Shown piece after piece: positions 3,368 through 11,916 of a stretch of DNA of 11,916 bases (positions are counted from its first letter, which is position 1; every line of letters begins with the position of its first letter). Location of the stretch: contig JASJCJ010000244.1 of assembly GCA_030066045.1 (NCBI GenBank), forward strand, positions 1 through 11,916, read 5' to 3'. Both the position numbers and the translations under genes were made by a program. The notes beneath the pieces were generated by a model. That model saw nothing but the letters and a program-made list of their open reading frames with translations, was not told where the DNA came from and did no database searches. This DNA comes from Calothrix sp. MO_167.B12. GTDB taxonomy: Bacteria > Cyanobacteriota > Cyanobacteriia > Cyanobacteriales > Nostocaceae.

Positions 3368-3570
3368 ATGAGTTTATCTGGTCAGCAGCGTAAAAGACTA
3401 CAAGATTTACAAGACAACATTGCCAAAGACGAAAAATTGCTCAAGGATTTTGAGGATGCATTGCGCTACGAGAAAGACCCTCGTGTCATAGCAGGATATC
3501 GCCGGGAGATTGAGCGACAGAGAGAGTCAATCACTCGCTACGAATCCGAAATGCGAGAACTACAACAAAA
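3368..3570 (+). other. Copy 1 of the shared N-terminal coiled-coil module (domain-level annotation)
   Basis: 3423-3531 is ~95% identical at nucleotide level to 8090-8198. Confidence 0.7.
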
Positions 3571-4255
3571 ATTGACAAGGGAACCATCTACTCAAATGCG
3601 AATGCAGGAGTTGGATGACAATACTAAACCTCTGTATGTTCTCTCAATACCCGTTACGAATCATAAAGAAGAGGAAAATCAAGATACAAAAATTAACTAT
3701 CCAATTGATAGCAAAGACAAGACACAACACTCGTCAAATCCTACAGATACTGAAGTAGAAACATATATCGAAAGAGGTATTGACTATACTCAACTACAAG
3801 AGTATATATCATCAGGTAAATGGAAGAAAGCTGACCAGGAAACAACTAGAGTTATGCTTGAAGTAGCTAACAGGCAAGAAGAAGGTTGGCTACGAAGTAA
3901 GGATATTGAACAGTTATCCTGCTCAGAACTCTGCAGAATAGACCAACTCTGGGTTAAATACAGCAACGGTCGGTTTGGTTTTAGTGTGCAAAGGCATATC
4001 TGGCTTAGCCTTGGTGGTCAACCAGGTAAATTCAATTTCACTGTCTTCTGTAAGTTTGGCAATCGCGTAGGTTGGCGAGTTAACAATGACTGGTTAGAAC
4101 AATACGATCAATTCACCTTTGCCTCTGATGCTCCAAAGGGACATCTCCCATCTTTGAGATTACCAGGTTCGGAGAAGGAAGCTAATTGGTGGGATTTGTG
4201 GCAGAAAAGCTTCAGAGGCTTGTTGCTTCGCATGGAAGATTGCTCATTAAGTTAA
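3368..4255 (+). CDS. Two-domain protein: N-terminal ~60-aa coiled-coil module (shared with the 8048 and 8738 genes), S/T/D-rich linker, and a C-terminal GUN4 (tetrapyrrole-binding) domain
   Basis: C-terminal region WKKADQETTRVMLEVA...SCSELCRIDQLWVKYSNGRFGFSVQRHIWLSLGG...VGWRVNNDW...FASDAPKGHLPSL matches the GUN4 core signature (W..AD..T...L..........PC.DL..ID.LW...S.G.FGFSVQ..IW...GG...W.....W...L.F...AP.GHLP). N-terminal KDEKLLKDFEDALRYEKDPRVIAGYRREIERQRESI is repeated in neighbouring genes. Confidence 0.85.
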   Translation: MSLSGQQRKRLQDLQDNIAKDEKLLKDFEDALRYEKDPRVIAGYRREIERQRESITRYESEMRELQQKLTREPSTQMRMQELDDNTKPLYVLSIPVTNHKEEENQDTKINYPIDSKDKTQHSSNPTDTEVETYIERGIDYTQLQEYISSGKWKKADQETTRVMLEVANRQEEGWLRSKDIEQLSCSELCRIDQLWVKYSNGRFGFSVQRHIWLSLGGQPGKFNFTVFCKFGNRVGWRVNNDWLEQYDQFTFASDAPKGHLPSLRLPGSEKEANWWDLWQKSFRGLLLRMEDCSLS

Positions 4256-4580
4256 GTTTCAATCTCAGTAATAAATAAGCTAATTAAATATAAGCATAGT
4301 CATTATATACATATAACTGATATGTTTCAGGTGCATCTATGGCAAGTTTTACAAGTAAGTTCCGAGGATAGGGATCTGGCGGCAACAAAGCATAAAAACG
4401 TTGAAGTCACCACATAGATAGGATTTCCGCCTTAGATCAATTCGGGTGTTCGGGGAAGTGAAGTTTCAATAAGTATCTTAGGTTCACAAAAAATTGATAG
4501 AAAACACGGAATATTGTGGTTGACATTGGTAGATATAAGTAAGTAGGGATGCAATAAAAATAAATACATAACTAAATCCG

Positions 4581-7529
4581 ATGAAATACTTAACAGTTTA
4601 CTTAAGATTAGCTATATTAATAGGTTGTGGGACAATAAATGCTGCTTTCGCTACAGGAAATACCAAAGCACAAACATTAGTGGCACCACAAGCTTCAACA
4701 GTAGTATTCAGCGAAATTTCAACTACAGCTAAATCACTAAAGATTAACCAACAGAGTCTATCTCATCAAAGTATACAACTAATGGCAATTCCCCAGAGTC
4801 AACCTTATATATTGGCTCAAGCAAGTAAAGGTGGAGAGAATGGAATCATTTGGATAGTTTTGTTAAGTGGAGTTGCGATCGCAGGAATCACGATTGTTTG
4901 CCAGAAAGGGGTGATTGTGATTGGTAAGAACGAAGTTGGCATTGTCTACAAAAAATTTGCCCCTTTTCGCGGTTCTCTCCCTGCCGATAAACTGATTGCC
5001 CTGAATGGAGAAGCGGGTTATCAAGCTGATACTCTTTCATCTGGTTTGCATCTCTGGTATTGGTCCTGGATGTACCAAATTCGTAAGGAACCAGCGATTG
5101 ACATTCCCCATGGGGAAATTGGTCTTGTCATTGCTAAAGATGGGCAACCAATCCCCCGCCAACGAATGTTAGGTAAAGTGATTGATGAGTGTAAAGATTT
5201 TCAAGATGGACATGGGTTTTTAAAGCACGGGGGTCAAAAAGGTAAGCAAATGGCTATCCTGACTACAGGAAGCTACCGTATTAACACTGAATTATTTACT
5301 GTGATTACTGCCGCCAATGCCACTAAGCATGGAATGAAGCCCGAGCAATTGAAAGTATATAAAGTGGAACCTAACAAAGTTGGTATTGTTACTACATATG
5401 ATGGTAAGCCAATTGAAGGTGAAATTGCTGGTTCAATTATTCATGATAATGAAAACTTCGTAAATGGAGAGAAGTTTATTAATGGGGGTGGGCAACAAGG
5501 CTTACAAGAAGAGTTGCTTCCTGTAGGTGAATGGAACTTAAATCCCTGGTTTGTGCAGGTTAAGCAAGTACCAGTGACAGAAATTCCCAATGGCTATGTT
5601 GGAATTATTAAATCCTATGTGGGAAAAACTCCTGAAAAGATTACTGGCACTGCTTCTTATCAAGGTGATTTGGTTGAAGATGGGTACAAAGGGATTTGGA
5701 AAACTCCCCTACGACCTGGCAAGTATGCTATTAACACAGAGGTGCAAAAAATAGAGCAAATACCTACTGATAATATTGTGCTGAAATGGTCAAACCAAAC
5801 CCAGTCTAAATACTATAGACATCTGCCTGCATTGAAGGTGCAAGATCAAGATGGATTTAAATTTGATGTAGAGGTAACACAGTTCATTCGCGTGAATCCC
5901 GAAGATGCCCCCAAGATGCTTTGCAGTGTAGGTTCCATAGATCAGCTAATAGACGAAGTTTTAAAGCCAACGGTCAGCCATTACTTTCTCACTGCTGCCC
6001 AATATTATGAGGCACTGGAATTTCAGAATAATCGTACTGACTTACAAGAAAGCGCGAAACAGGCTATCAAAACAGCCCTCAGTATTCACAATGTTCAAGC
6101 AATTGACACGTTGATTGGTGAAATTGACTTGCCCGATAAGTTAACTGAACATTTGATACAACGCAAGATTGCTCAGCAGGAAAAGGAAAAACTGAAAGTG
6201 GAAACATCATTAGAAGAGGAACGCCAAAATCATATTATAGCCAAGGAGACGGCACAAACAAGGGTTGAGGTAACTAAACATCAACTGAAGAGGGAGATTT
6301 TTGAACTAAATCGTCAAGAGAAACTAAACCAACAAAAAGCACAACAAGAGTTGAAGCGGCTGGCTCGTGAATCTGAAATAGAGGCGCGTCGTAGGCAAGC
6401 AGAAGTAGATGCACTATCTAAGCGACTGATAAGTCAAGTGGATATAGAAGACCTTCGCAAGAGAAAAGAGATAGAAGCAGACTTGAAGCAACTCCTGGGA
6501 GAAGCTGATGTAGATGTACTTGCCAAGACGCTGGAAGTCCTCGGTTCAGAAACATACACAGATATAGAAAAGAGCAAGATATTGGCAGAGGCACTGGGCA
6601 ATATCAAGGTGCCATTGGTACCGCAGACAATAAATTCTTTTGGCACTAGTCCTTATGGATCAATGGATTTCTTACAAGCAAATCCCCTTGGGTTGATGGT
6701 AACGCAGTTATTGCAGCAAGTAAGTCAGCAAAATCCCAACCAGCAACTTAGCAGTTCACCGTCAACACCTGTACTTCCTCAAACCCAGGTTAATTGTCCC
6801 AAGTGTGGATCTAAAAATCCAGAAACCAACAATTTCTGTAATAAATGTGGCACTGGACTAAATCAGCAGCTTTTCACTCACTCTCTATCTGAACCACGTT
6901 GCCCAGTTGTACTGCTTCTCGATACATCCAGTTCTATGTCGAGTGAATGTATCAATCAATTAATTGAAGGGATCGTTACTTTTCAACAGGAGTTAATGCA
7001 AGATACTGTAGCTTCCCGTAGTATTGAAGTAGCTATGATAACATTCGGTGACTCTGCCCAGGTAGTCCAAGACTTTACAATTGTTGAAAGTTTATCACCA
7101 CCTAAGCTTGTAGCAAATGGTATAAGTGCTATGGGTCAGGGGATTGAATTAGCGCTCAACGAGCTGGAGAGTCGCAAAGTTACTTACAAAAACAATGGCA
7201 TTCAGGAGCATCCAGCTTGGATGTTCTTGGTTGCAGGTAGTACTCCTAGCGACAATTGGAAAAATGCAGCAAGAAGTCTCAGAGAAGCTTTTGACAATAG
7301 CAAATTAATTTTCTTTACAGCAGTGGCTGTTCAAGGTGCAAACATGGATATTCTCAATCACATTGCTCCCAGCGATCCACCAGTAATGCTTAATGAATTG
7401 AAGTTTCAGGAATTGTTCCACTGGCTAGCTGATTCTCTAAAGAGAGTTTCCAGTAGCAAAGTAGGTAGCAGTACTAAGCTTCCACCCATCACACAGTGGG
7501 CAAGGATAGATGGGCTTTATCGGCAATAA
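4581..7529 (+). CDS. Large membrane protein: flotillin/YqiK-like SPFH (band 7) domain + long coiled coil + C4 zinc ribbon + C-terminal TerY-like von Willebrand A (vWA) domain. Alternative start ATG at 4782
   Basis: TM helix IIWIVLLSGVAIAGITIV, then an extended SPFH-like region (GIVYKKFAPF...GLHLWYW...IPHGEIGLVIAKDG... through ...SVGSIDQLIDEVLKPTVSHYFLTAAQYYEALEF...). E/R/Q/K-rich heptad coiled coil (LEEERQNHIIAKETAQTRVEV...EIEARRRQAEVDALSKR). CPKCGSKNPETNNFCNKCG zinc ribbon (6795-6851). vWA with MIDAS motif VVLLLDTSSSM...ITFGDSAQVV...GISAMGQGIELA...MFLVAGSTPSD (6900-~7390). Confidence 0.85.
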   Translation: MKYLTVYLRLAILIGCGTINAAFATGNTKAQTLVAPQASTVVFSEISTTAKSLKINQQSLSHQSIQLMAIPQSQPYILAQASKGGENGIIWIVLLSGVAIAGITIVCQKGVIVIGKNEVGIVYKKFAPFRGSLPADKLIALNGEAGYQADTLSSGLHLWYWSWMYQIRKEPAIDIPHGEIGLVIAKDGQPIPRQRMLGKVIDECKDFQDGHGFLKHGGQKGKQMAILTTGSYRINTELFTVITAANATKHGMKPEQLKVYKVEPNKVGIVTTYDGKPIEGEIAGSIIHDNENFVNGEKFINGGGQQGLQEELLPVGEWNLNPWFVQVKQVPVTEIPNGYVGIIKSYVGKTPEKITGTASYQGDLVEDGYKGIWKTPLRPGKYAINTEVQKIEQIPTDNIVLKWSNQTQSKYYRHLPALKVQDQDGFKFDVEVTQFIRVNPEDAPKMLCSVGSIDQLIDEVLKPTVSHYFLTAAQYYEALEFQNNRTDLQESAKQAIKTALSIHNVQAIDTLIGEIDLPDKLTEHLIQRKIAQQEKEKLKVETSLEEERQNHIIAKETAQTRVEVTKHQLKREIFELNRQEKLNQQKAQQELKRLARESEIEARRRQAEVDALSKRLISQVDIEDLRKRKEIEADLKQLLGEADVDVLAKTLEVLGSETYTDIEKSKILAEALGNIKVPLVPQTINSFGTSPYGSMDFLQANPLGLMVTQLLQQVSQQNPNQQLSSSPSTPVLPQTQVNCPKCGSKNPETNNFCNKCGTGLNQQLFTHSLSEPRCPVVLLLDTSSSMSSECINQLIEGIVTFQQELMQDTVASRSIEVAMITFGDSAQVVQDFTIVESLSPPKLVANGISAMGQGIELALNELESRKVTYKNNGIQEHPAWMFLVAGSTPSDNWKNAARSLREAFDNSKLIFFTAVAVQGANMDILNHIAPSDPPVMLNELKFQELFHWLADSLKRVSSSKVGSSTKLPPITQWARIDGLYRQ
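4875..4882. repeat. HIP1 octamer GCGATCGC (cyanobacterial highly iterated palindrome)
   Basis: Exact GCGATCGC. A second exact copy lies at 11788-11795, and a 7/8 copy at 1074-1081. Confidence 0.6.
6900..7390 (+). other. vWA domain (TerY-like, intact MIDAS DxSxS) within the 982-aa protein
   Basis: LLLDTSSSM ... FGDSAQ ... AxGxTxxG-like GISAMGQG ... VAGSTPSD spacing typical of vWA folds, immediately preceded by a zinc ribbon as in TerY-family vWA proteins. Confidence 0.7.
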
Positions 7530-7885
7530 AAGTCATGCCTGTGGAACATTCGTCTGAAAATCGATTTTCCCTATTTTACTCTTTAGCGGCTATTTGCCGC
7601 TCACGAAAATTTGGGTTTAGCGTACAAAAGCAAATCTATTGTGACGTGGGTGGCAAGCCAGGAAAATATAGCTGGGAAACGTTCGTTAGCTTTGCAGAGC
7701 AAGTGGAGTGGAAAGTAGGGGACAAATGGCTGGGCTATGATGAACTGTGTTGGGACTTACGAGGAGTACGTGGACACATACCCCTGTGGGTTACTGGAGG
7801 ACTAGCAGTTGATGCGGATACAAGGGTAGTAGTGTGTGGATGGGCAGTGGGGTTGTTCTCTCGCACAGAGACTTGTAGACTCTAA
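7496..7885 (+). CDS. GUN4-like domain protein, N-terminally truncated relative to a full GUN4 core (stand-alone fragment or remnant). Likely start is ATG 7535, 5 nt after the upstream stop. The GTG at 7496 overlaps the upstream gene
   Basis: RKFGFSVQKQIYCDVGGKPGKYSWETFVSFAEQVEWKVGDKWLGYDELCWDLRGVRGHIPLW aligns with the second half of the GUN4 domain of the 3368 gene (GRFGFSVQRHIWLSLGGQPGKFNF...VGWRVNNDWL...FASDAPKGHLPSL). Confidence 0.6.
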   Translation: MGKDRWALSAIKVMPVEHSSENRFSLFYSLAAICRSRKFGFSVQKQIYCDVGGKPGKYSWETFVSFAEQVEWKVGDKWLGYDELCWDLRGVRGHIPLWVTGGLAVDADTRVVVCGWAVGLFSRTETCRL

Positions 7886-8047: not shown

Positions 8048-8734
8048 ATGACTAACCAAAGACTAAAAGATTTGGAAGATAGCATTACCAAAGACGAAAA
8101 ATTGCTCAAAGATTTTGAGGATGCATTGCGCTACGAGACAAACCCTCGTGTCATAGCAGGATATCGCCAGGAGATTGAGCGACAGAAAGAGTCAATCGCT
8201 AGTCACAAATCTGAGTATGTTGAACTGAAACAGGAATTAGCTGGGGAACCATCTGCTCAAATACAACTGCAAAAAGTAGAGAACCAATTGCAGCAGATGG
8301 ATAATAAAATAAACATTTTACTTAGTGGTCAGGTTGCTATTTATGCAGATATCAATGATATGCGTCTAGCCCTGTTAAAACGCTACGATGCCTCGGAACG
8401 AACCATAATTGGTGCTATTGCCCAGCAGTTAAATCAAAATCAATTAGTTTTGACACAACAGTTGTTGGATGCAGTAGAAAACAATCAAGTATCAGAACCA
8501 CAAATGCAACAGATGTTGGCAGTATTAGAAGATAAAATTCCTTCTCTACCTCCTAGTCAATTAGCCGCTATAGAGATTATAAAAGACCCCCAGTTTGATG
8601 CTAAACATAAACTAAAAGTAAGTCTACCAATTATACCAATGCTTGTAGAGTATGAAGGTGAATTAGAGTTAGGAAGTGGTTTTAATATCAAGTCTGCTTG
8701 GGAACATTTGGTAGCGAAGTTACGAAGGAAATAA
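8048..8734 (+). CDS. Protein with the shared N-terminal coiled-coil module fused to an uncharacterised all-helical Q/L-rich C-terminal domain
   Basis: N-terminus KDEKLLKDFEDALRYETNPRVIAGYRQEIERQKESI is near-identical to 3368-gene residues 20-55. The C-terminal ~150 aa have no motif I recognise. Confidence 0.75.
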   Translation: MTNQRLKDLEDSITKDEKLLKDFEDALRYETNPRVIAGYRQEIERQKESIASHKSEYVELKQELAGEPSAQIQLQKVENQLQQMDNKINILLSGQVAIYADINDMRLALLKRYDASERTIIGAIAQQLNQNQLVLTQQLLDAVENNQVSEPQMQQMLAVLEDKIPSLPPSQLAAIEIIKDPQFDAKHKLKVSLPIIPMLVEYEGELELGSGFNIKSAWEHLVAKLRRK

Positions 8735-8737
8735 GCT

Positions 8738-8998
8738 ATGTCTGATTGGCTTCAATACCTCCAACAACAAAAGAACAAAGATTTATCTCTATTAAAATAA
8801 TTAGAAGATAAGCTGCGCTATGAAGATAATCCACGTCAAAAACTGAGGTGGAAAGTTAAAATTGAAGAAATCAAGCAGAAAATAAAAAATGAACTCGACG
8901 ACGAGCAAACAGAACAAATCCGTGGCGGCATATTGCTAGGCTTTTTTAGGATAAAGAAAAAATCTGATAAGAAAGTACAGCACTTTGCAGATAAATGA
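8738..8998 (+). pseudogene. Third, diverged copy of the N-terminal module as a short stand-alone gene interrupted by an in-frame TAA (8798-8800). Either a pseudogene or a sequencing/readthrough case
   Basis: ATG at 8738 lies 3 nt after the upstream stop (translational coupling). MSDWLQYLQQQKNKDLSLLK-stop-LEDKLRYEDNPRQKLRWKVKIEEIKQKIKNEL... The module motif (LLK.[FL]ED.LRYE.[DN]PR) spans the stop codon in the same frame. Ends with TGA at 8996-8998. Confidence 0.5.
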
Positions 8999-9355: not shown

Positions 9356-10400
9356 CTATTGCCAATTTCCCACCAACACATAGGGCGCCCAAAAGTGAGG
9401 GTGATTATACTTTTCATCTGTCAACAGAGTTAGCTGTGCTTGTTGCAATACTTGAGCTTTATTGTTCTGAGTGGTTTTAGCTTCACCTAACTGACGATAA
9501 AATTCACTCATGATTTTAGCAGTACTTTCATCTGCTACAGGCCAAAGTGTCGCTAAGGTGCTACGCGCTCCTGCTCGCACCGCTACCCCAGCTAATCCCA
9601 AAGTAGCTCTTTTGTCTCCACTAGCAGTCTCACAGGCACTGAGAACTAATAATTCAATGGCTCTGGGTTGATTCAGGGTTTTATCTCGCAGTAAATTATC
9701 CAATTGCTTGACATTAATACGTCTATCCCAGGAGAGTATAAAAGTATCCTCTGCTTTAGAACTAAACTTGGCATGGGTAGCTAGATGAACTATGGGAAAA
9801 CGAAAATCACTAATCTCTTGTTGTACAGTGTTAGTGGTAAATTTCTTATTTAGAAGTGGTTGACCAGATAATCCAATTTTCTGGATTTGTTCTAGTTCCG
9901 ATGGTACATTAGGTAATGGGTTAAAACCTTGATGTGCGGGTAAGTCTTTGCGAATTTCACTGAGTCCTGCTGTTAAAGCTTTGAAATTTATTGCTGTTAG
10001 TGGTTTTGGGTTTACCAACTGTAAACCAGGTGTCAAGGCAATGGCATACTTTTCTAATAGATACTGCTTGCCATCGTGCAGAACAGCCATAGGAATATTC
10101 CGCAAGTCTCCATCTAAAACAAAAGCTACAGTCTTGACTTTACTATTTGCCAACTGTTTTTCTACTGGTCTAATTAACCAATTATACAGCTTTTGGTATT
10201 TGGGCAAAAAATATTTCTCTCTACTTATAGGTTTTAAAAGAGAACCCTGTACTTCCCCTACAGTATTTTCCAACTCTGATTGAGAAATTTTAGTACTGTA
10301 AAGCTGGGGAGGTTGATTAGGTAAACTGAGCAGAATTTCTAACCTATCTTTCAAGATAATTGGATAAATAACTGCTGCGTTTTTATCAATTTGATCGATT
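9356..10400 (-). other. CHAT peptidase domain portion of the TPR-CHAT protein (domain-level annotation)
   Basis: His and Cys catalytic motifs as above. AVIYPIIL...VAFVLDGDLRNIPMAVL upstream is typical of CHAT domains. Confidence 0.7.
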
Positions 10401-11916
10401 TGTTGGGGTTTTGCGTCTACACAGGCTTCTCGGAAAAAGTTGTTGATTTCTGCTAATTGCAAAGATTCAATTACATTACGGGCTTGAGTTAGTAATTTAT
10501 GACTTTCTTTCTCTTTTCCTGCGGTTTTTAAGAAACGAGCATATTCTAAATCTAATTGAACCAACTGGCGATATATTGGTTCAACATTATCCCGGAAAGC
10601 AAACTGTACCTCTGGGTTGACTGCGACTAAATCACCTCGTAATGATTGTAGGGAATCATAGGCTTTGGTATAGGCAGCAATAGCATCAGGAATATCGTTT
10701 TGGGCTTTACGTATGCGTCCCAACTGCCAGAAAAACTGGTAGGCGATGTGTGGTGATTCCAAATTTGAAGCTAAACTCAAAGCCTGTTTAGTCAATTGTT
10801 CTGCTTGGGATAAATTCTGCCTGGAACTACTCAGTTCATAGAGTCTACCGCGAAATCCTAATGCATAAGCTTGTGCCGCTTTATCTTCAAAACTCCTAGC
10901 TTGTGCTAATGCTTGGACTAAAATACTGTCAATTTCGTTAAAACTTGGTAGTTGAGAATTACCAGTGAGATTAAAATTTTCGGTTTGAGCTAATTTGACC
11001 AAACTTTGGGCAAAGTTTATTTGTAGGTAAACTGTTGTGCGACTGGGAGGCAAACTATTGAATTGAGACTTGATATCTTGCCATAATTGTGATGCCTCTA
11101 AAGTTTTTTTCCGTTTTAGTAACAAGCTGAGTTGATTCAATTTTGCTTGTTGTCTGGTGGTTGGAGATGTAGACAGCTTAATTACATGACTGTAAGAATC
11201 CAAAGCAGTTTGTTGATAATTCTGCCTTTGACGACGAATGGTTTCGCTTTCAGCCAAGGCTTGGGCTGTGTTACCCAGGGCGAGATAAACAGCAGCCTCT
11301 TGTTGGGGATAATTCAATTTTTGAACTACTTTTAAACTAGTTTCCAAGACCATTTTGGACTGTTCTAATTGACCTACAGATTGCAGTATGTTACCCAAAC
11401 TTGTCAATCCTAATACTACAGTAATAGGGGGAGAACTAGTTTCAATTTGTTGCAGCTTTGTGGTTAATTCTTCTGAAGTTAACCTGCCTAACTCTTGACA
11501 ATTTTCTAATTGTAATTGTGTCTTTAAGGCTTCAAGTACAGTATTACAAGCACGGGGATAAAAACCCAAATCTTGCATTGCTTGTGCTTGATTAATTTTA
11601 CTTTGAGTAACCTGGGAAGAATTTTTAATTTGGCTATAGATTTTCGTAGATTCTTGCCATGTCTGTAAAGCATCTGCCGACTGTCCAATTTCCCGTTGCA
11701 AGTATCCCTGAATATCTAAAGAGTTAGCCAAAATTCTCAACTGTTCTTGCTTCTGGGGTTGGGTTTTGAGTATTTTTAAACTATCTGCGATCGCATTTTT
11801 TGCTGATTCCCACTTGCCTAGTTTTTGATAAGTTAGGGACAGATTACTCAATGCCATTGCTTGGTTTAAGCTATCCTGTTGGGCAGCATAAGCTGCCGCC
11901 GTATCTTTCCATACAA
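9356..11916 (-). CDS. TPR-repeat + C-terminal CHAT (caspase-like HetF-associated with TPRs) protease-domain protein. 5' end (N-terminus) lies beyond the window edge
   Basis: Minus-strand ORF stays open past 11857 to the window edge (…VWKDTAAAYAAQQDSLNQAMALSNLSLTYQKLGKWESAKNAIA). Multiple TPR-like helical repeats. CHAT core near the C-terminus with catalytic dyad context HLATHAKF (rc at ~9763-9790) and LVLSACETASG (rc at ~9609-9637), followed by LGLAGVAVRAGARSTLATLWPV. Confidence 0.85.
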   Translation of the reverse strand, partial: VWKDTAAAYAAQQDSLNQAMALSNLSLTYQKLGKWESAKNAIADSLKILKTQPQKQEQLRILANSLDIQGYLQREIGQSADALQTWQESTKIYSQIKNSSQVTQSKINQAQAMQDLGFYPRACNTVLEALKTQLQLENCQELGRLTSEELTTKLQQIETSSPPITVVLGLTSLGNILQSVGQLEQSKMVLETSLKVVQKLNYPQQEAAVYLALGNTAQALAESETIRRQRQNYQQTALDSYSHVIKLSTSPTTRQQAKLNQLSLLLKRKKTLEASQLWQDIKSQFNSLPPSRTTVYLQINFAQSLVKLAQTENFNLTGNSQLPSFNEIDSILVQALAQARSFEDKAAQAYALGFRGRLYELSSSRQNLSQAEQLTKQALSLASNLESPHIAYQFFWQLGRIRKAQNDIPDAIAAYTKAYDSLQSLRGDLVAVNPEVQFAFRDNVEPIYRQLVQLDLEYARFLKTAGKEKESHKLLTQARNVIESLQLAEINNFFREACVDAKPQQIDQIDKNAAVIYPIILKDRLEILLSLPNQPPQLYSTKISQSELENTVGEVQGSLLKPISREKYFLPKYQKLYNWLIRPVEKQLANSKVKTVAFVLDGDLRNIPMAVLHDGKQYLLEKYAIALTPGLQLVNPKPLTAINFKALTAGLSEIRKDLPAHQGFNPLPNVPSELEQIQKIGLSGQPLLNKKFTTNTVQQEISDFRFPIVHLATHAKFSSKAEDTFILSWDRRINVKQLDNLLRDKTLNQPRAIELLVLSACETASGDKRATLGLAGVAVRAGARSTLATLWPVADESTAKIMSEFYRQLGEAKTTQNNKAQVLQQAQLTLLTDEKYNHPHFWAPYVLVGNWQ
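11788..11795. repeat. HIP1 octamer GCGATCGC
   Basis: Exact GCGATCGC inside the TPR-CHAT gene. Confidence 0.6.

What the first reader, a model, noticed from the sequence alone, without database searches (positions are those of the whole stretch)
3423..3531. Near-identical ~110-nt cassette encoding a coiled-coil N-terminal module shared by two genes 4.6 kb apart (second copy 8090-8198, third degenerate copy ~8801-8900)
The segment ccaaagacgaaaaattgctcaa...gagtcaatc at 3423-3531 recurs at 8090-8198 with only a handful of mismatches. The flanking codons are diverged, and the downstream domains are unrelated (GUN4 versus a Q/L-rich helical domain). A third copy (8801-8900) is recognisable only at protein level (LEDKLRYEDNPR vs FEDALRYEKDPR). 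This pattern indicates recent gene conversion or domain shuffling of a module, typical of rapidly diversifying adaptor domains (death-domain-like logic). The module may mediate homotypic association between the three proteins, which is inference.
Basis: seen in the sequence. Interest (0 to 1): 0.7.

Follow-up and report, generated by a model that had tools for sequence, protein, structure and literature searches.

The report
Shared helical-hairpin adaptor kept alike by gene conversion
Two neighbouring cyanobacterial genes share a nearly identical ~110-base stretch because a short gene-conversion event homogenised a two-helix adaptor domain that has no entry in the domain libraries searched, is widespread, and tags immune or cell-death-type proteins in filamentous bacteria.

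Summary
Window 3393-3549 repeats at 8058-8214 (157 nt, 89%), and the core 3423-3531 has 5 mismatches in 109 nt. The second copy starts at 8088, not 8090.

The repeat encodes a ~65-70-aa two-helix hairpin, here called MOD, with the signature LLKxYEDALRYEDDPRR. Pfam, NCBIfam and PADLOC have no model for it. It occurs in at least 336 protein clusters, at N-terminal, internal or C-terminal positions. Its fusion partners include TIR, caspase, STAND NTPases, PNP, FGE-sulfatase, receiver, GUN4, EAD1 and EAD7.

- **Gene B** (MOD + a 155-aa 'Bc' domain) is the standard form of a large family of uncharacterised cyanobacterial proteins.
- **Copy C** belongs to a diverged subtype, MOD2. MOD2 normally heads the gene directly downstream of MOD-Bc, fused to TIR, an NLR-type NTPase, FGE-sulfatase or GUN4. 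Here C is a pseudogene, with an in-frame TAA and no effector part.
- **Gene A** is MOD-GUN4. Its ortholog in a related metagenome carries an extra N-terminal EAD1, which A has lost.

In the core, synonymous divergence between A and B is 0.044, against 0.52 and 1.04 in the flanks (p=0.0005). This indicates a short conversion tract, probably B to A.

The adaptor role rests on comparative genomics and is not shown experimentally. I rate this a new member of the known effector-associated-domain kind.

The parts
3368..4255 (+). Gene A, 295 aa: MOD hairpin + linker + GUN4 domain. Identical to database protein P0003.
   Evidence: ORF; GUN4 PF05419 E=1.1e-44, residues 135-263; module HMM 3371-3598, E=4e-31; exact match P0003.
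3392..3598 (+). MOD (helical-hairpin module) coding region in gene A. Position 3392 is also the junction of the EAD1 deletion relative to the L008 ortholog.
3422..3532 (+). Gene-conversion tract, copy in A (37 codons; 6 differences from B, only 1 synonymous).
   Evidence: dS 0.044 vs 0.52/1.04 in flanks; Fisher p=0.0005; site patterns.
3770..4156 (+). GUN4 (tetrapyrrole-binding) domain of gene A.
   Evidence: Pfam PF05419, residues 135-263; PADLOC PD-T4-6 model matches this part only.
8048..8734 (+). Gene B, 228 aa: MOD + Bc domain, the standard member of the MOD-Bc family (NCBI MDJ0800609.1, hypothetical protein, Calothrix sp. MO_167.B12).
   Evidence: AF2 model pLDDT 90.6, all-alpha.
8048..8263 (+). 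MOD coding region in gene B (helices 2-29 and 33-65, turn at the TNP/DPR motif).
   Evidence: Module HMM E=5e-33; AF2.
8087..8197 (+). Gene-conversion tract, copy in B.
   Evidence: In register with 3422-3532 at offset 4665.
8279..8725 (+). Bc domain of gene B: ~155-aa helical domain ending in the conserved HKLKVxxPIIPxxLxYEGExELxSGxNxKxAW motif.
   Evidence: Local HMM E=7e-56; alignment A5.
8738..8998 (+). Copy C: pseudogene of the conserved downstream partner (MOD2-effector). ATG at 8738 is 3 nt after B's stop. In-frame TAA at 8798-8800. MOD2 remnant at 8801-8917. Effector part missing.
   Evidence: The stop aligns with a Glu/Gln codon in intact MOD2 genes of L029, L032 and L027. Nucleotide similarity to Calothrix PCC 7507 runs from 8054 to 8883 and then ends.
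7536..7885 (+). GUN4 C-terminal fragment (116 aa, matches GUN4 profile positions 54-125 only); probably a gene remnant between the vWA gene and gene B.
   Evidence: Pfam E=3.7e-14; gene call in L007; 34% identity to A's GUN4.
4581..7529 (+). Context gene: SPFH/Band7 + zinc ribbon + vWA protein (982 aa), syntenic with gene A in L008.
   Evidence: Pfam; 92.5% nt synteny 3392-6782 with L008.
9356..11857 (-). Context gene: TPR + CHAT (caspase-like) protein, cut by the window end (928 aa on the source contig). A CHAT gene also neighbours the B ortholog in L027.
   Evidence: Pfam CHAT E=2.5e-57.

Best explanation
The repeat is the coding sequence of a conserved ~65-70-residue helix-turn-helix hairpin domain, here called MOD, with the signature RLxDLxDNIxxDxxLLKxYEDALRYEDDPRRxxxYxREIExxRES. 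MOD is a mobile adaptor module in the NLR/TIR/caspase/EAD 'conflict-system' network of filamentous cyanobacteria, and it also occurs in Chloroflexota. The basic unit is a two-gene cassette. Gene 1 encodes MOD fused to a constant ~155-aa helical domain (Bc), as in window gene B. Gene 2 starts 0-20 nt downstream (about 100 nt in one locus) and encodes a diverged MOD2 hairpin fused to a variable effector or sensor: TIR, NB-ARC or NACHT NTPase, FGE-sulfatase, or TM-GUN4. In other genomes some of the same domain classes (TIR, P-loop ATPases) are fused directly in front of MOD-Bc. The inferred mechanism is that hairpins of two proteins pack together, most simply as a four-helix bundle, and so couple the variable protein to the constant MOD-Bc protein. 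This replaces a covalent link. In this window the original partner, copy C, is dead: it has a nonsense codon and has lost its effector. A second MOD protein lies 4.6 kb upstream: gene A, MOD-GUN4, derived from an EAD1-MOD-GUN4 ancestor by deletion of EAD1. A short gene-conversion tract of about 110 nt, probably copied from B into A, has made the central part of the two hairpins nearly identical at nucleotide level. This would keep or create matching interaction surfaces between the GUN4 sensor protein and MOD-Bc. Shown: the repeat, the domain family and its architectures, the cassette, the pseudogene state of C, the EAD1 loss, and the conversion signature. Inferred: physical hairpin-hairpin binding, the role of Bc, and a defence or cell-death function.
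Against: No experiment or complex prediction shows that hairpins bind each other. The single-sequence AF2 model of the tandem protein P0046 was not informative on packing (pTM 0.40). MOD co-occurs with recognised adaptors in the same polypeptide (EAD1-MOD-GUN4, EAD7-MOD-Bc), which fits equally well with MOD being a stalk or oligomerisation element. In most cassettes the two copies (MOD and MOD2) are only 13-36% identical, so 'adjacent copies are each other's closest relatives' does not hold in general. The window has no NTPase, and its own MOD2 partner is a pseudogene, so the local system may be decaying rather than functional. The direction of conversion is not fully resolved: the four-sequence comparison alone pointed A to B, and L031/L032 carry an A-like 3' flank, which indicates further exchanges. 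The counts in the core are small (1 synonymous and 5 non-synonymous differences).
Confidence: 0.66

Rival explanations
1. MOD is a generic coiled-coil stalk or self-oligomerisation element and not a partner-specific adaptor. Coupling between proteins would be done by the true EADs (EAD1, EAD7) or by Bc, and the A/B identity would have no consequence for interaction.
Against: The sequence signature is unusually strict for a spacer: 10 positions are at least 90% conserved across 67 sequences that are 32-67% identical to gene A's module, including charged surface positions and the DPR turn. MOD/MOD2 gene pairing is conserved with 0-20 nt spacing in most loci. The split-versus-fused pattern points to the hairpin itself as the link.
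Confidence: 0.2
2. There was no gene conversion. The near-identity would reflect very strong purifying selection on the most conserved motif plus codon bias in an AT-rich genome.
For: The core coincides with the most conserved protein motif of the family. The A-A' ortholog comparison also shows low divergence in the core (3 of 111).
Against: Selection on the protein does not freeze synonymous sites: there is 1 synonymous difference over 23 sites in the core against 11 over 21 in the flanks (p=0.0005). Other family members with the same residues use different codons. Core and flank give different trees. No RNA structure is conserved.
Confidence: 0.06
3. Recent domain shuffling: gene A acquired its module de novo from B by a fusion event, and the identity is that of a young duplicate, not a converted older paralog.
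For: The similarity starts abruptly at 3392, where A also differs structurally from its ortholog through loss of EAD1. A's first ten module codons are closer to B-type sequences (5-6 of 30) than to A' (8 of 30).
Against: A and B are homologous across about 215 nt, but the flanks are at paralog-level divergence (dS 0.5-1.0), so an older homologous module was already present. The L008 ortholog has the same MOD-GUN4 arrangement behind EAD1. The 3' flank tree is ((A,A'),(B,B')).
Confidence: 0.06
4. The identical stretch is a nucleotide-level element embedded in both genes, such as an mRNA hairpin or regulatory site, or it is an assembly artefact of the MAG.
For: Both copies fold into the same predicted stem-loop (z = -1.1 and -2.3), and all A/B differences are compatible with it.
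Against: There are no Rfam hits. RNAalifold finds 0 conserved pairs in 19 copies. The z-scores are weak. An independent metagenome (L008) carries the same A core within 92.5%-identical flanks, and independent B orthologs (L031, L032) carry the B core.
Confidence: 0.02

Closest known systems
Effector-associated domains (EAD1-EAD11/12) of Kaur, Burroughs, Iyer & Aravind 2020/2021 (PMC7159879, PMC8195603)
   Same: Small, non-enzymatic, all-alpha module. One copy sits on a constant component and further copies on variable effector or signalling proteins, often in adjacent genes. The same effectors are directly fused in other genomes. It occurs in multicellular cyanobacteria and Chloroflexota. It shares polypeptides with EAD1, EAD7, TCAD9, TIR, caspase, FGS, GUN4 and STAND NTPases.
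   Different: No match to any Pfam EAD model at E<=0.1, and hhalign against EAD7 gives probability 0.3%. It is a long two-helix hairpin, not a compact bundle. The paired copies are diverged subtypes (MOD/MOD2). The constant partner is the Bc domain, not VMAP, iSTAND, GAP1 or Ubl.
EACC1/EACC2 two-gene systems (constant component + variable effector gene; same papers)
   Same: Two collinear genes, one constant small protein and one highly variable partner, in the same organisms.
   Different: EACC1 is a single-TM domain and EACC2 is alpha+beta followed by a caspase. Bc is a soluble helical domain, and here the link between the two genes is a shared hairpin.
Bell/BASS-NLR gene pairs (Dyrka et al. 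2020, bioRxiv 10.1101/2020.01.06.895854) and fungal HET-S/NWD2
   Same: A small helical protein encoded immediately upstream of, and collinear with, an NB-ARC or NACHT NLR that carries a matching motif at its N-terminus. Both have 'all-in-one' fused variants and the same phyla.
   Different: BASS motifs are beta-forming amyloid signalling motifs (paired stretches of 15 aa or more) at the C-terminus of the Bell protein. MOD is a 65-aa alpha-hairpin at the N-terminus of both proteins, and MOD2 partners are not only NLRs.
Death-fold adaptors (DD/DED/CARD/PYD) and bacterial bDLDs
   Same: Functional analogy: homotypic helical adaptors that recruit caspases, TIR domains and NLRs.
Short-tract gene conversion and concerted evolution of linked bacterial paralogs
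   Same: A sharp-edged block of identity with homogenised synonymous sites inside older, diverged paralogs, and discordant trees for tract and flank.
   Different: Here the tract is confined to the most conserved part of an interaction module shared by otherwise unrelated genes.

Membership tests
Effector-associated domain (EAD) class, Kaur et al. 2020 | Small domain without enzymatic features, mostly all-alpha | tested here: met
   About 65-70 aa, two helices, AF2 pLDDT >90; no catalytic family hit.
Effector-associated domain (EAD) class, Kaur et al. 2020 | One copy on a core/constant component, further copies on effector or signalling domains, often in the adjacent gene | tested here: met
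   MOD-Bc followed by MOD2-TIR, -NTPase, -FGS or -GUN4 in about 13 loci. The constant component is Bc, not one of the published cores.
Effector-associated domain (EAD) class, Kaur et al. 2020 | The same effector domains are directly fused to the core component in other genomes | tested here: met
   TIR-MOD-Bc, AAA-MOD-Bc and REC-MOD-Bc versus split versions.
Effector-associated domain (EAD) class, Kaur et al. 2020 | Copies in adjacent genes are each other's closest relatives | tested here: inconclusive
   True for A/B in the window (81% nt over the module, 95% in the core). Not true for MOD/MOD2 pairs elsewhere (13-36% aa identity).
Effector-associated domain (EAD) class, Kaur et al. 2020 | Sequence membership in one of the described families EAD1-EAD11 | tested here: not met
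   No Pfam hit on the module at E<=0.1; hhalign MOD vs EAD7 probability 0.3%. Only EAD7 was tested profile-to-profile.
Effector-associated domain (EAD) class, Kaur et al. 2020 | Homotypic physical interaction between copies | not testable with these tools
   No multimer prediction or experiment was available; the P0046 tandem model was uninformative.
Death-like superfamily | Six-helix bundle fold | tested here: not met
Bell/BASS-NLR amyloid signalling pairs | Collinear, closely spaced effector gene + NLR gene sharing a motif | tested here: met
   L012, L017, L019/L021 and L031: MOD-Bc then MOD2-NB-ARC, -NACHT or P-loop NTPase, with 3-20 nt spacers. Not met in the window itself, where C is a pseudogene.
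Bell/BASS-NLR amyloid signalling pairs | The shared motif is a short beta/amyloid-forming sequence at the effector C-terminus | tested here: not met
   The shared element is a 65-aa alpha-hairpin at the N-terminus of both proteins.
GUN4 (PF05419), C-terminal domain of gene A | Match to the Pfam model above the gathering threshold | tested here: met
   152.5 bits against a cutoff of 29.2.
Gene-conversion tract | Homogenised synonymous sites limited to a block inside diverged paralogs | tested here: met
   dS 0.044 vs 0.52/1.04, p=0.0005.
Gene-conversion tract | Tract and flank give different phylogenies when orthologs are included | tested here: met
   Flank: ((A,A'),(B,B')) at 20 sites. Core: A/A' nest beside window B. 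The direction (B to A favoured) is not fully resolved.

The most novel reading that the evidence does not exclude
MOD-Bc plus MOD2-effector is a previously undescribed, widespread two-gene immune or cell-death signalling system of multicellular bacteria. An alpha-helical hairpin heterodimer would do the job that amyloid BASS motifs or Death folds do elsewhere, and Bc would be a new executioner or hub domain. In this locus a gene-conversion event would have retargeted a tetrapyrrole-sensing GUN4 protein onto that hub after the original partner died.
Probability: 0.35. Interest if true: 0.72.

Novelty: new member of a known kind. Interest (0 to 1): 0.52.

Why it matters
The finding adds a large, uncatalogued adaptor family and a constant partner domain to the bacterial NLR/TIR/caspase 'apoptosis-like' network. 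There are at least 336 module clusters and at least 319 MOD-Bc clusters, all labelled hypothetical. It gives a simple, testable cassette: Calothrix PCC 7507 MOD-Bc + MOD2-TIR. It also provides a clear case in which a 110-nt gene-conversion tract homogenises only the putative interaction surface of two otherwise unrelated genes. That is the micro-evolutionary process expected if adaptor pairs must stay matched. A profile of this module would let annotation pipelines connect many 'hypothetical' cyanobacterial proteins to conflict systems.

Tried and rejected
- **Family libraries:** Pfam, NCBIfam and PADLOC on the module gave only coiled-coil noise (GAS, Rad50, GrpE). PD-T4-6 matches the GUN4 part only.
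- **Word-indexed protein search:** with the short module, alone or as a 67-sequence profile, it returned only 2 and 12 short proteins and said nothing about architectures.
- **First genome scan:** with full-length A it found only GUN4 relatives that lack the module.
- **Relationship to EAD7:** hhalign of MOD against EAD7 showed none.
- **AFDB fold search:** the library was unavailable.
- **RNA-element idea:** Rfam gave nothing, fold z-scores were -1.1 and -2.3, and RNAalifold found 0 pairs. Rejected.
- **Viral contig scan for phage-borne decoys:** none found.
- **Promoter and terminator scans:** counts at chance level.
- **L016 paralogs as a second case of module-limited conversion:** they are whole-unit duplicates, 80% identical over 627 nt. 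Rejected.
- **AF2 of the natural tandem P0046 without an alignment:** helices were confident but packing was not interpretable.
- **A-to-B conversion direction:** the four-sequence test suggested it, but two more B orthologs showed that B' is the outlier.

Full report
**1. Observation**

The window has one outstanding direct repeat, 3393-3549 vs 8058-8214 (157 nt, 89% identity, spacing 4665). A weaker in-register extension runs 3557-3606 vs 8222-8271 (76%). All other repeat families are 36 nt or shorter.

Identity is 0.90-0.97 over about 3413-3532, falls to 0.5-0.8 on either side, and reaches background upstream of B's start codon and beyond about 3620.

The repeat lies at the 5' ends of two same-strand ORFs:
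- Gene A, 3368-4255, 295 aa, with a C-terminal GUN4 domain (PF05419, E=1e-44).
- Gene B, 8048-8734, 228 aa, with no Pfam domain.

The third copy is real at protein level. However, the ORF starting at ATG 8738, 3 nt after B's stop, hits an in-frame TAA at 8798-8800, just before the LEDKLRYEDNPR motif. No alternative start rescues it.

**2. What the module is**

Pfam, NCBIfam and PADLOC recognise nothing in the shared ~70 residues. An exhaustive HMMER search of 1.84 billion representatives with a four-sequence profile found 336 clusters at E<=1e-3 and 167 at E<=1e-10.

In the best 150 hits the module is N-terminal in 77, internal in 43, C-terminal in 7 and essentially alone in 23. The regions outside the module fall into 55 unrelated clusters.

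Pfam on these proteins gives these partners:
- EAD7 (8 proteins), TIR_2/TIR (7 and 5), DUF4062 (6).
- STAND/AAA NTPases: AAA_16, ATPase_2, NACHT, NB-ARC, nSTAND3, KAP.
- GUN4, PNP_UDP_1, Response_reg, FGE-sulfatase, Peptidase_C14, EAD1, CHASE2, a nucleotide cyclase, ParA and TCAD9.

Examples:
- EAD7-MOD-PNP (P0113, Chloroflexota).
- MOD-NACHT-FGS-GUN4 (P0085).
- REC-MOD-caspase (P0063).
- TIR-MOD-Bc (P0147).

The signature is RLxDLxDNIxxDxxLLKxYEDALRYEDDPRRxxxYxREIExxRES.

An AlphaFold2 model of gene B built with 26 homologs is confident (pLDDT 90.6). The module forms helices 2-29 and 33-65, with the turn at the conserved xDPR motif. A third long helix and a small helical domain follow.

**3. 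Gene B is the standard family member, and copy C is its conserved partner**

In 79 of the 150 hits the module is followed directly by a ~155-aa domain homologous to the rest of gene B. I call this domain Bc; it ends in HKLKVxxPIIPxxLxYEGExELxSGxNxKxAW. Architecture counts are MOD-X 37, MOD-Bc 34, X-MOD-Bc 32, MOD alone 29, X-MOD-X 7, X-MOD 5, X-MOD-Bc-X 4, MOD-Bc-X 1 and MOD-MOD-X 1.

A search with the full-length family finds at least 319 clusters at E<=1e-10. They come from Anabaena, Moorena, Symploca, Nostoc, Scytonema, Tolypothrix, Microcoleus, Calothrix and others. All are labelled hypothetical, and none has a Pfam domain on the MOD-Bc unit. Gene B itself is MDJ0800609.1 of Calothrix sp. 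MO_167.B12.

In metagenome and genome loci, the MOD-Bc gene is followed by an ORF that starts with a diverged hairpin, MOD2. The gap is 0-20 nt in most loci and about 100 nt in L027. MOD2 scores E=1e-8 to 1e-18 against the module profile, compared with about 1e-30 for MOD. MOD2 is fused to a variable C-terminal part:
- NB-ARC in L017, and NB-ARC plus TPR in L012.
- NACHT in L019 and L021.
- A P-loop NTPase in L031.
- TIR in Calothrix PCC 7507 (L029).
- Two FGE-sulfatase genes in Calothrix MO_192.B10 (L027).
- TM helices plus GUN4 in L009.

Loci where a domain is already fused in front of MOD-Bc (AAA-MOD-Bc in L014, REC-MOD-Bc in L022) lack the MOD2 gene.

Window copy C aligns with these MOD2 N-termini. 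For example, C reads RQKLRWKVKIEEIKQKI and PCC 7507 reads RRKLRLNDDIEEIKQKI. C's TAA sits where the others have Glu or Gln. Nucleotide similarity to PCC 7507 runs from B through C to 8883 and then stops. Copy C is therefore a pseudogene of the MOD2-effector partner, with a nonsense mutation and its effector part lost.

**4. Gene A and its history**

A metagenome contig, L008, is 92.5% identical to window 3392-6782. Its ortholog of gene A (A') is 397 aa: EAD1 (PF19955, E=4.5e-30) + MOD + GUN4.

Window A keeps the first seven codons (MSLSGQQ) but lacks the next ~102 codons. The junction lies in a 12-nt direct repeat, AAAAAACTRCAA. The simplest reading is that EAD1 was deleted in the window lineage.

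**5. Gene conversion**

Nei-Gojobori estimates for A vs B:

| Segment | dS | dN |
|---|---|---|
| Core 3422-3532 (37 codons) | 0.044 | 0.059 |
| 5' module codons (3392-3421) | 0.52 | 0.18 |
| 3' module codons (3533-3607) | 1.04 | 0.36 |

Synonymous differences are 1 over about 23 sites in the core, against 11 over about 21 sites in the flanks (Fisher p=0.0005). The orthologous A-A' background is dS 0.117, so the paralogs are more alike in the core than the orthologs are elsewhere.

Other family members encode the same residues with different codons (alignment). Protein-level selection therefore cannot explain the identity.

With B' (L027) added, the 3' flank gives ((A,A'),(B,B')) at 20 sites, whereas the core has 14 sites with A=A'=B and B' different. 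Taken alone, this suggested A-to-B conversion.

Two closer B orthologs (L031, L032) change that reading. They share B's core (7-8 differences in 111 nt). A is 6 differences from window B but 12 from each of them. B' is 18-22 from every other sequence.

A's core therefore nests beside window B, which favours B-to-A conversion before the A/A' split, with B' as an outlier. L031 and L032 have an A-like 3' flank, and A's first ten module codons are closer to B-type sequences than to A'. The history thus involves several exchanges, and the direction is not fully settled.

**6. Rivals examined**

- **RNA element.** Both copies give the same predicted stem-loop, but the z-scores are weak (-1.1 and -2.3). 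Rfam finds nothing, and RNAalifold finds no conserved pair in 19 copies.
- **Assembly artefact.** This is unlikely, because independent metagenomes carry the A core (L008) and the B core (L031, L032).
- **De novo shuffling.** This is unlikely, because the flanks are homologous at paralog-level divergence and A' has the same arrangement.
- **Generic coiled-coil stalk.** This reading cannot be excluded, because MOD co-occurs with EAD1 or EAD7 in single polypeptides.

**7. Mechanism (inferred)**

The pattern matches the published EAD principle (PMC7159879) in three respects:
- One copy sits on a constant component and others on variable effectors encoded next door.
- The same effector classes are fused directly in other genomes.
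- The partner repertoire is the same.

It also parallels the Bell/BASS-NLR gene pairs (bioRxiv 10.1101/2020.01.06.895854).

I propose that hairpins from two proteins pack into a helical bundle and so couple MOD2-tagged effectors or NLRs to MOD-Bc. In this locus the cognate partner C has decayed. The MOD-GUN4 protein A carries a hairpin core copied from B, so it is the likely current partner of B.

The neighbouring SPFH-Zn-ribbon-vWA gene is syntenic with A in L008. A TPR-CHAT gene is also adjacent to the B ortholog in L027. Both belong to the same type of system, but their functional link to A and B was not tested.

**8. Novelty and score**

The kind of system is known: adaptor-coupled conflict systems of multicellular bacteria. 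This particular hairpin family, the Bc domain and the MOD-Bc/MOD2 cassette are absent from Pfam, NCBIfam and PADLOC. I found no description of them in the two Kaur et al. papers by text search, but I could not check their supplementary alignments.

I rate it a new member of a known kind, with interest 0.52.

Noticed in passing
window 3368-3405 vs L008 4618-4961: Gene A has lost a ~102-codon EAD1 domain (PF19955, E=4.5e-30 in the L008 ortholog). It keeps the first 7 codons, and the junction lies in a 12-nt direct repeat AAAAAACTRCAA. The B-like stretch of A begins exactly at this junction (3392), so deletion and conversion may have been one event.
   Followed up: partly
window 8738-8998: Copy C is a pseudogene. 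It has an in-frame TAA at 8798-8800 where intact MOD2 genes have Glu or Gln, only about 65 codons follow, and there is no effector domain. A read-level check of the stop codon was not possible.
   Followed up: yes
L009, L011, L012, L017, L018, L019, L021, L023, L024, L027, L029, L031, L032: A conserved two-gene cassette: a MOD-Bc gene followed, within 0-20 nt in most loci, by a MOD2-X gene, where X is NB-ARC, NACHT, a P-loop NTPase, TIR, FGE-sulfatase or TM-GUN4. Loci with X fused in front of MOD-Bc lack the second gene.
   Followed up: yes
window 7536-7885: A 116-aa ORF encodes only the C-terminal half of a GUN4 domain (profile positions 54-125 of 141), directly after the vWA gene. It is probably the remnant of another GUN4 gene, and it is called as a gene in the ENA assembly.
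   Followed up: partly
P0046 (356 aa, database protein): A natural tandem MOD-MOD-GUN4 protein, which would be a fused version of the proposed hairpin pairing. The single-sequence AF2 model gave confident helices with turns at both DPR-type motifs, but the packing was not interpretable (pTM 0.40).
   Followed up: partly
L027 10011-10223 (B ortholog of Calothrix MO_192.B10): This ortholog's module core is 18-22 differences (of 111 nt) from every other A or B sequence, although its flanks are normal (9 of 75 from B). Its own core may have been replaced from yet another paralog.
   Followed up: no
L031 and L032 module 3' flank (codons 50-62): These B orthologs read SITRYKYEMKELQQ, which resembles gene A (SITRYESEMRELQQ) more than window B (SIASHKSEYVELKQ). 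This suggests a longer or different exchange tract in those lineages.
   Followed up: no
window 3436-3517 and 8101-8182 (+ strand mRNA): Both copies give an identical predicted imperfect stem-loop (about -28 kcal/mol; z -1.1 and -2.3), and all A/B substitutions are compatible with it. It is not conserved in 19 family members.
   Followed up: yes
window 4581-7529: A 982-aa protein with an N-terminal hydrophobic segment, SPFH/Band7, a coiled coil, a zinc ribbon and a vWA domain. It is syntenic with gene A in L008. Band7-vWA proteins are described as scaffolding components of VMAP ternary systems, but no MoxR or VMAP gene is in the window.
   Followed up: no
window 9356-11916 (- strand) and L027 6651-9320: A TPR-CHAT gene and TPS-domain giant genes flank the B gene in both Calothrix MAGs, but in opposite orientation. 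The rearrangement breakpoint lies near the truncated 3' end of copy C.
   Followed up: partly
L016 1-6864: One locus encodes a large caspase...MOD-TCAD9...EAD7 protein, a MOD-Bc-TM protein and an EAD7-MOD-Bc-TM protein. MOD and EAD7 are both duplicated across neighbouring genes, and Bc can carry C-terminal transmembrane extensions.
   Followed up: partly
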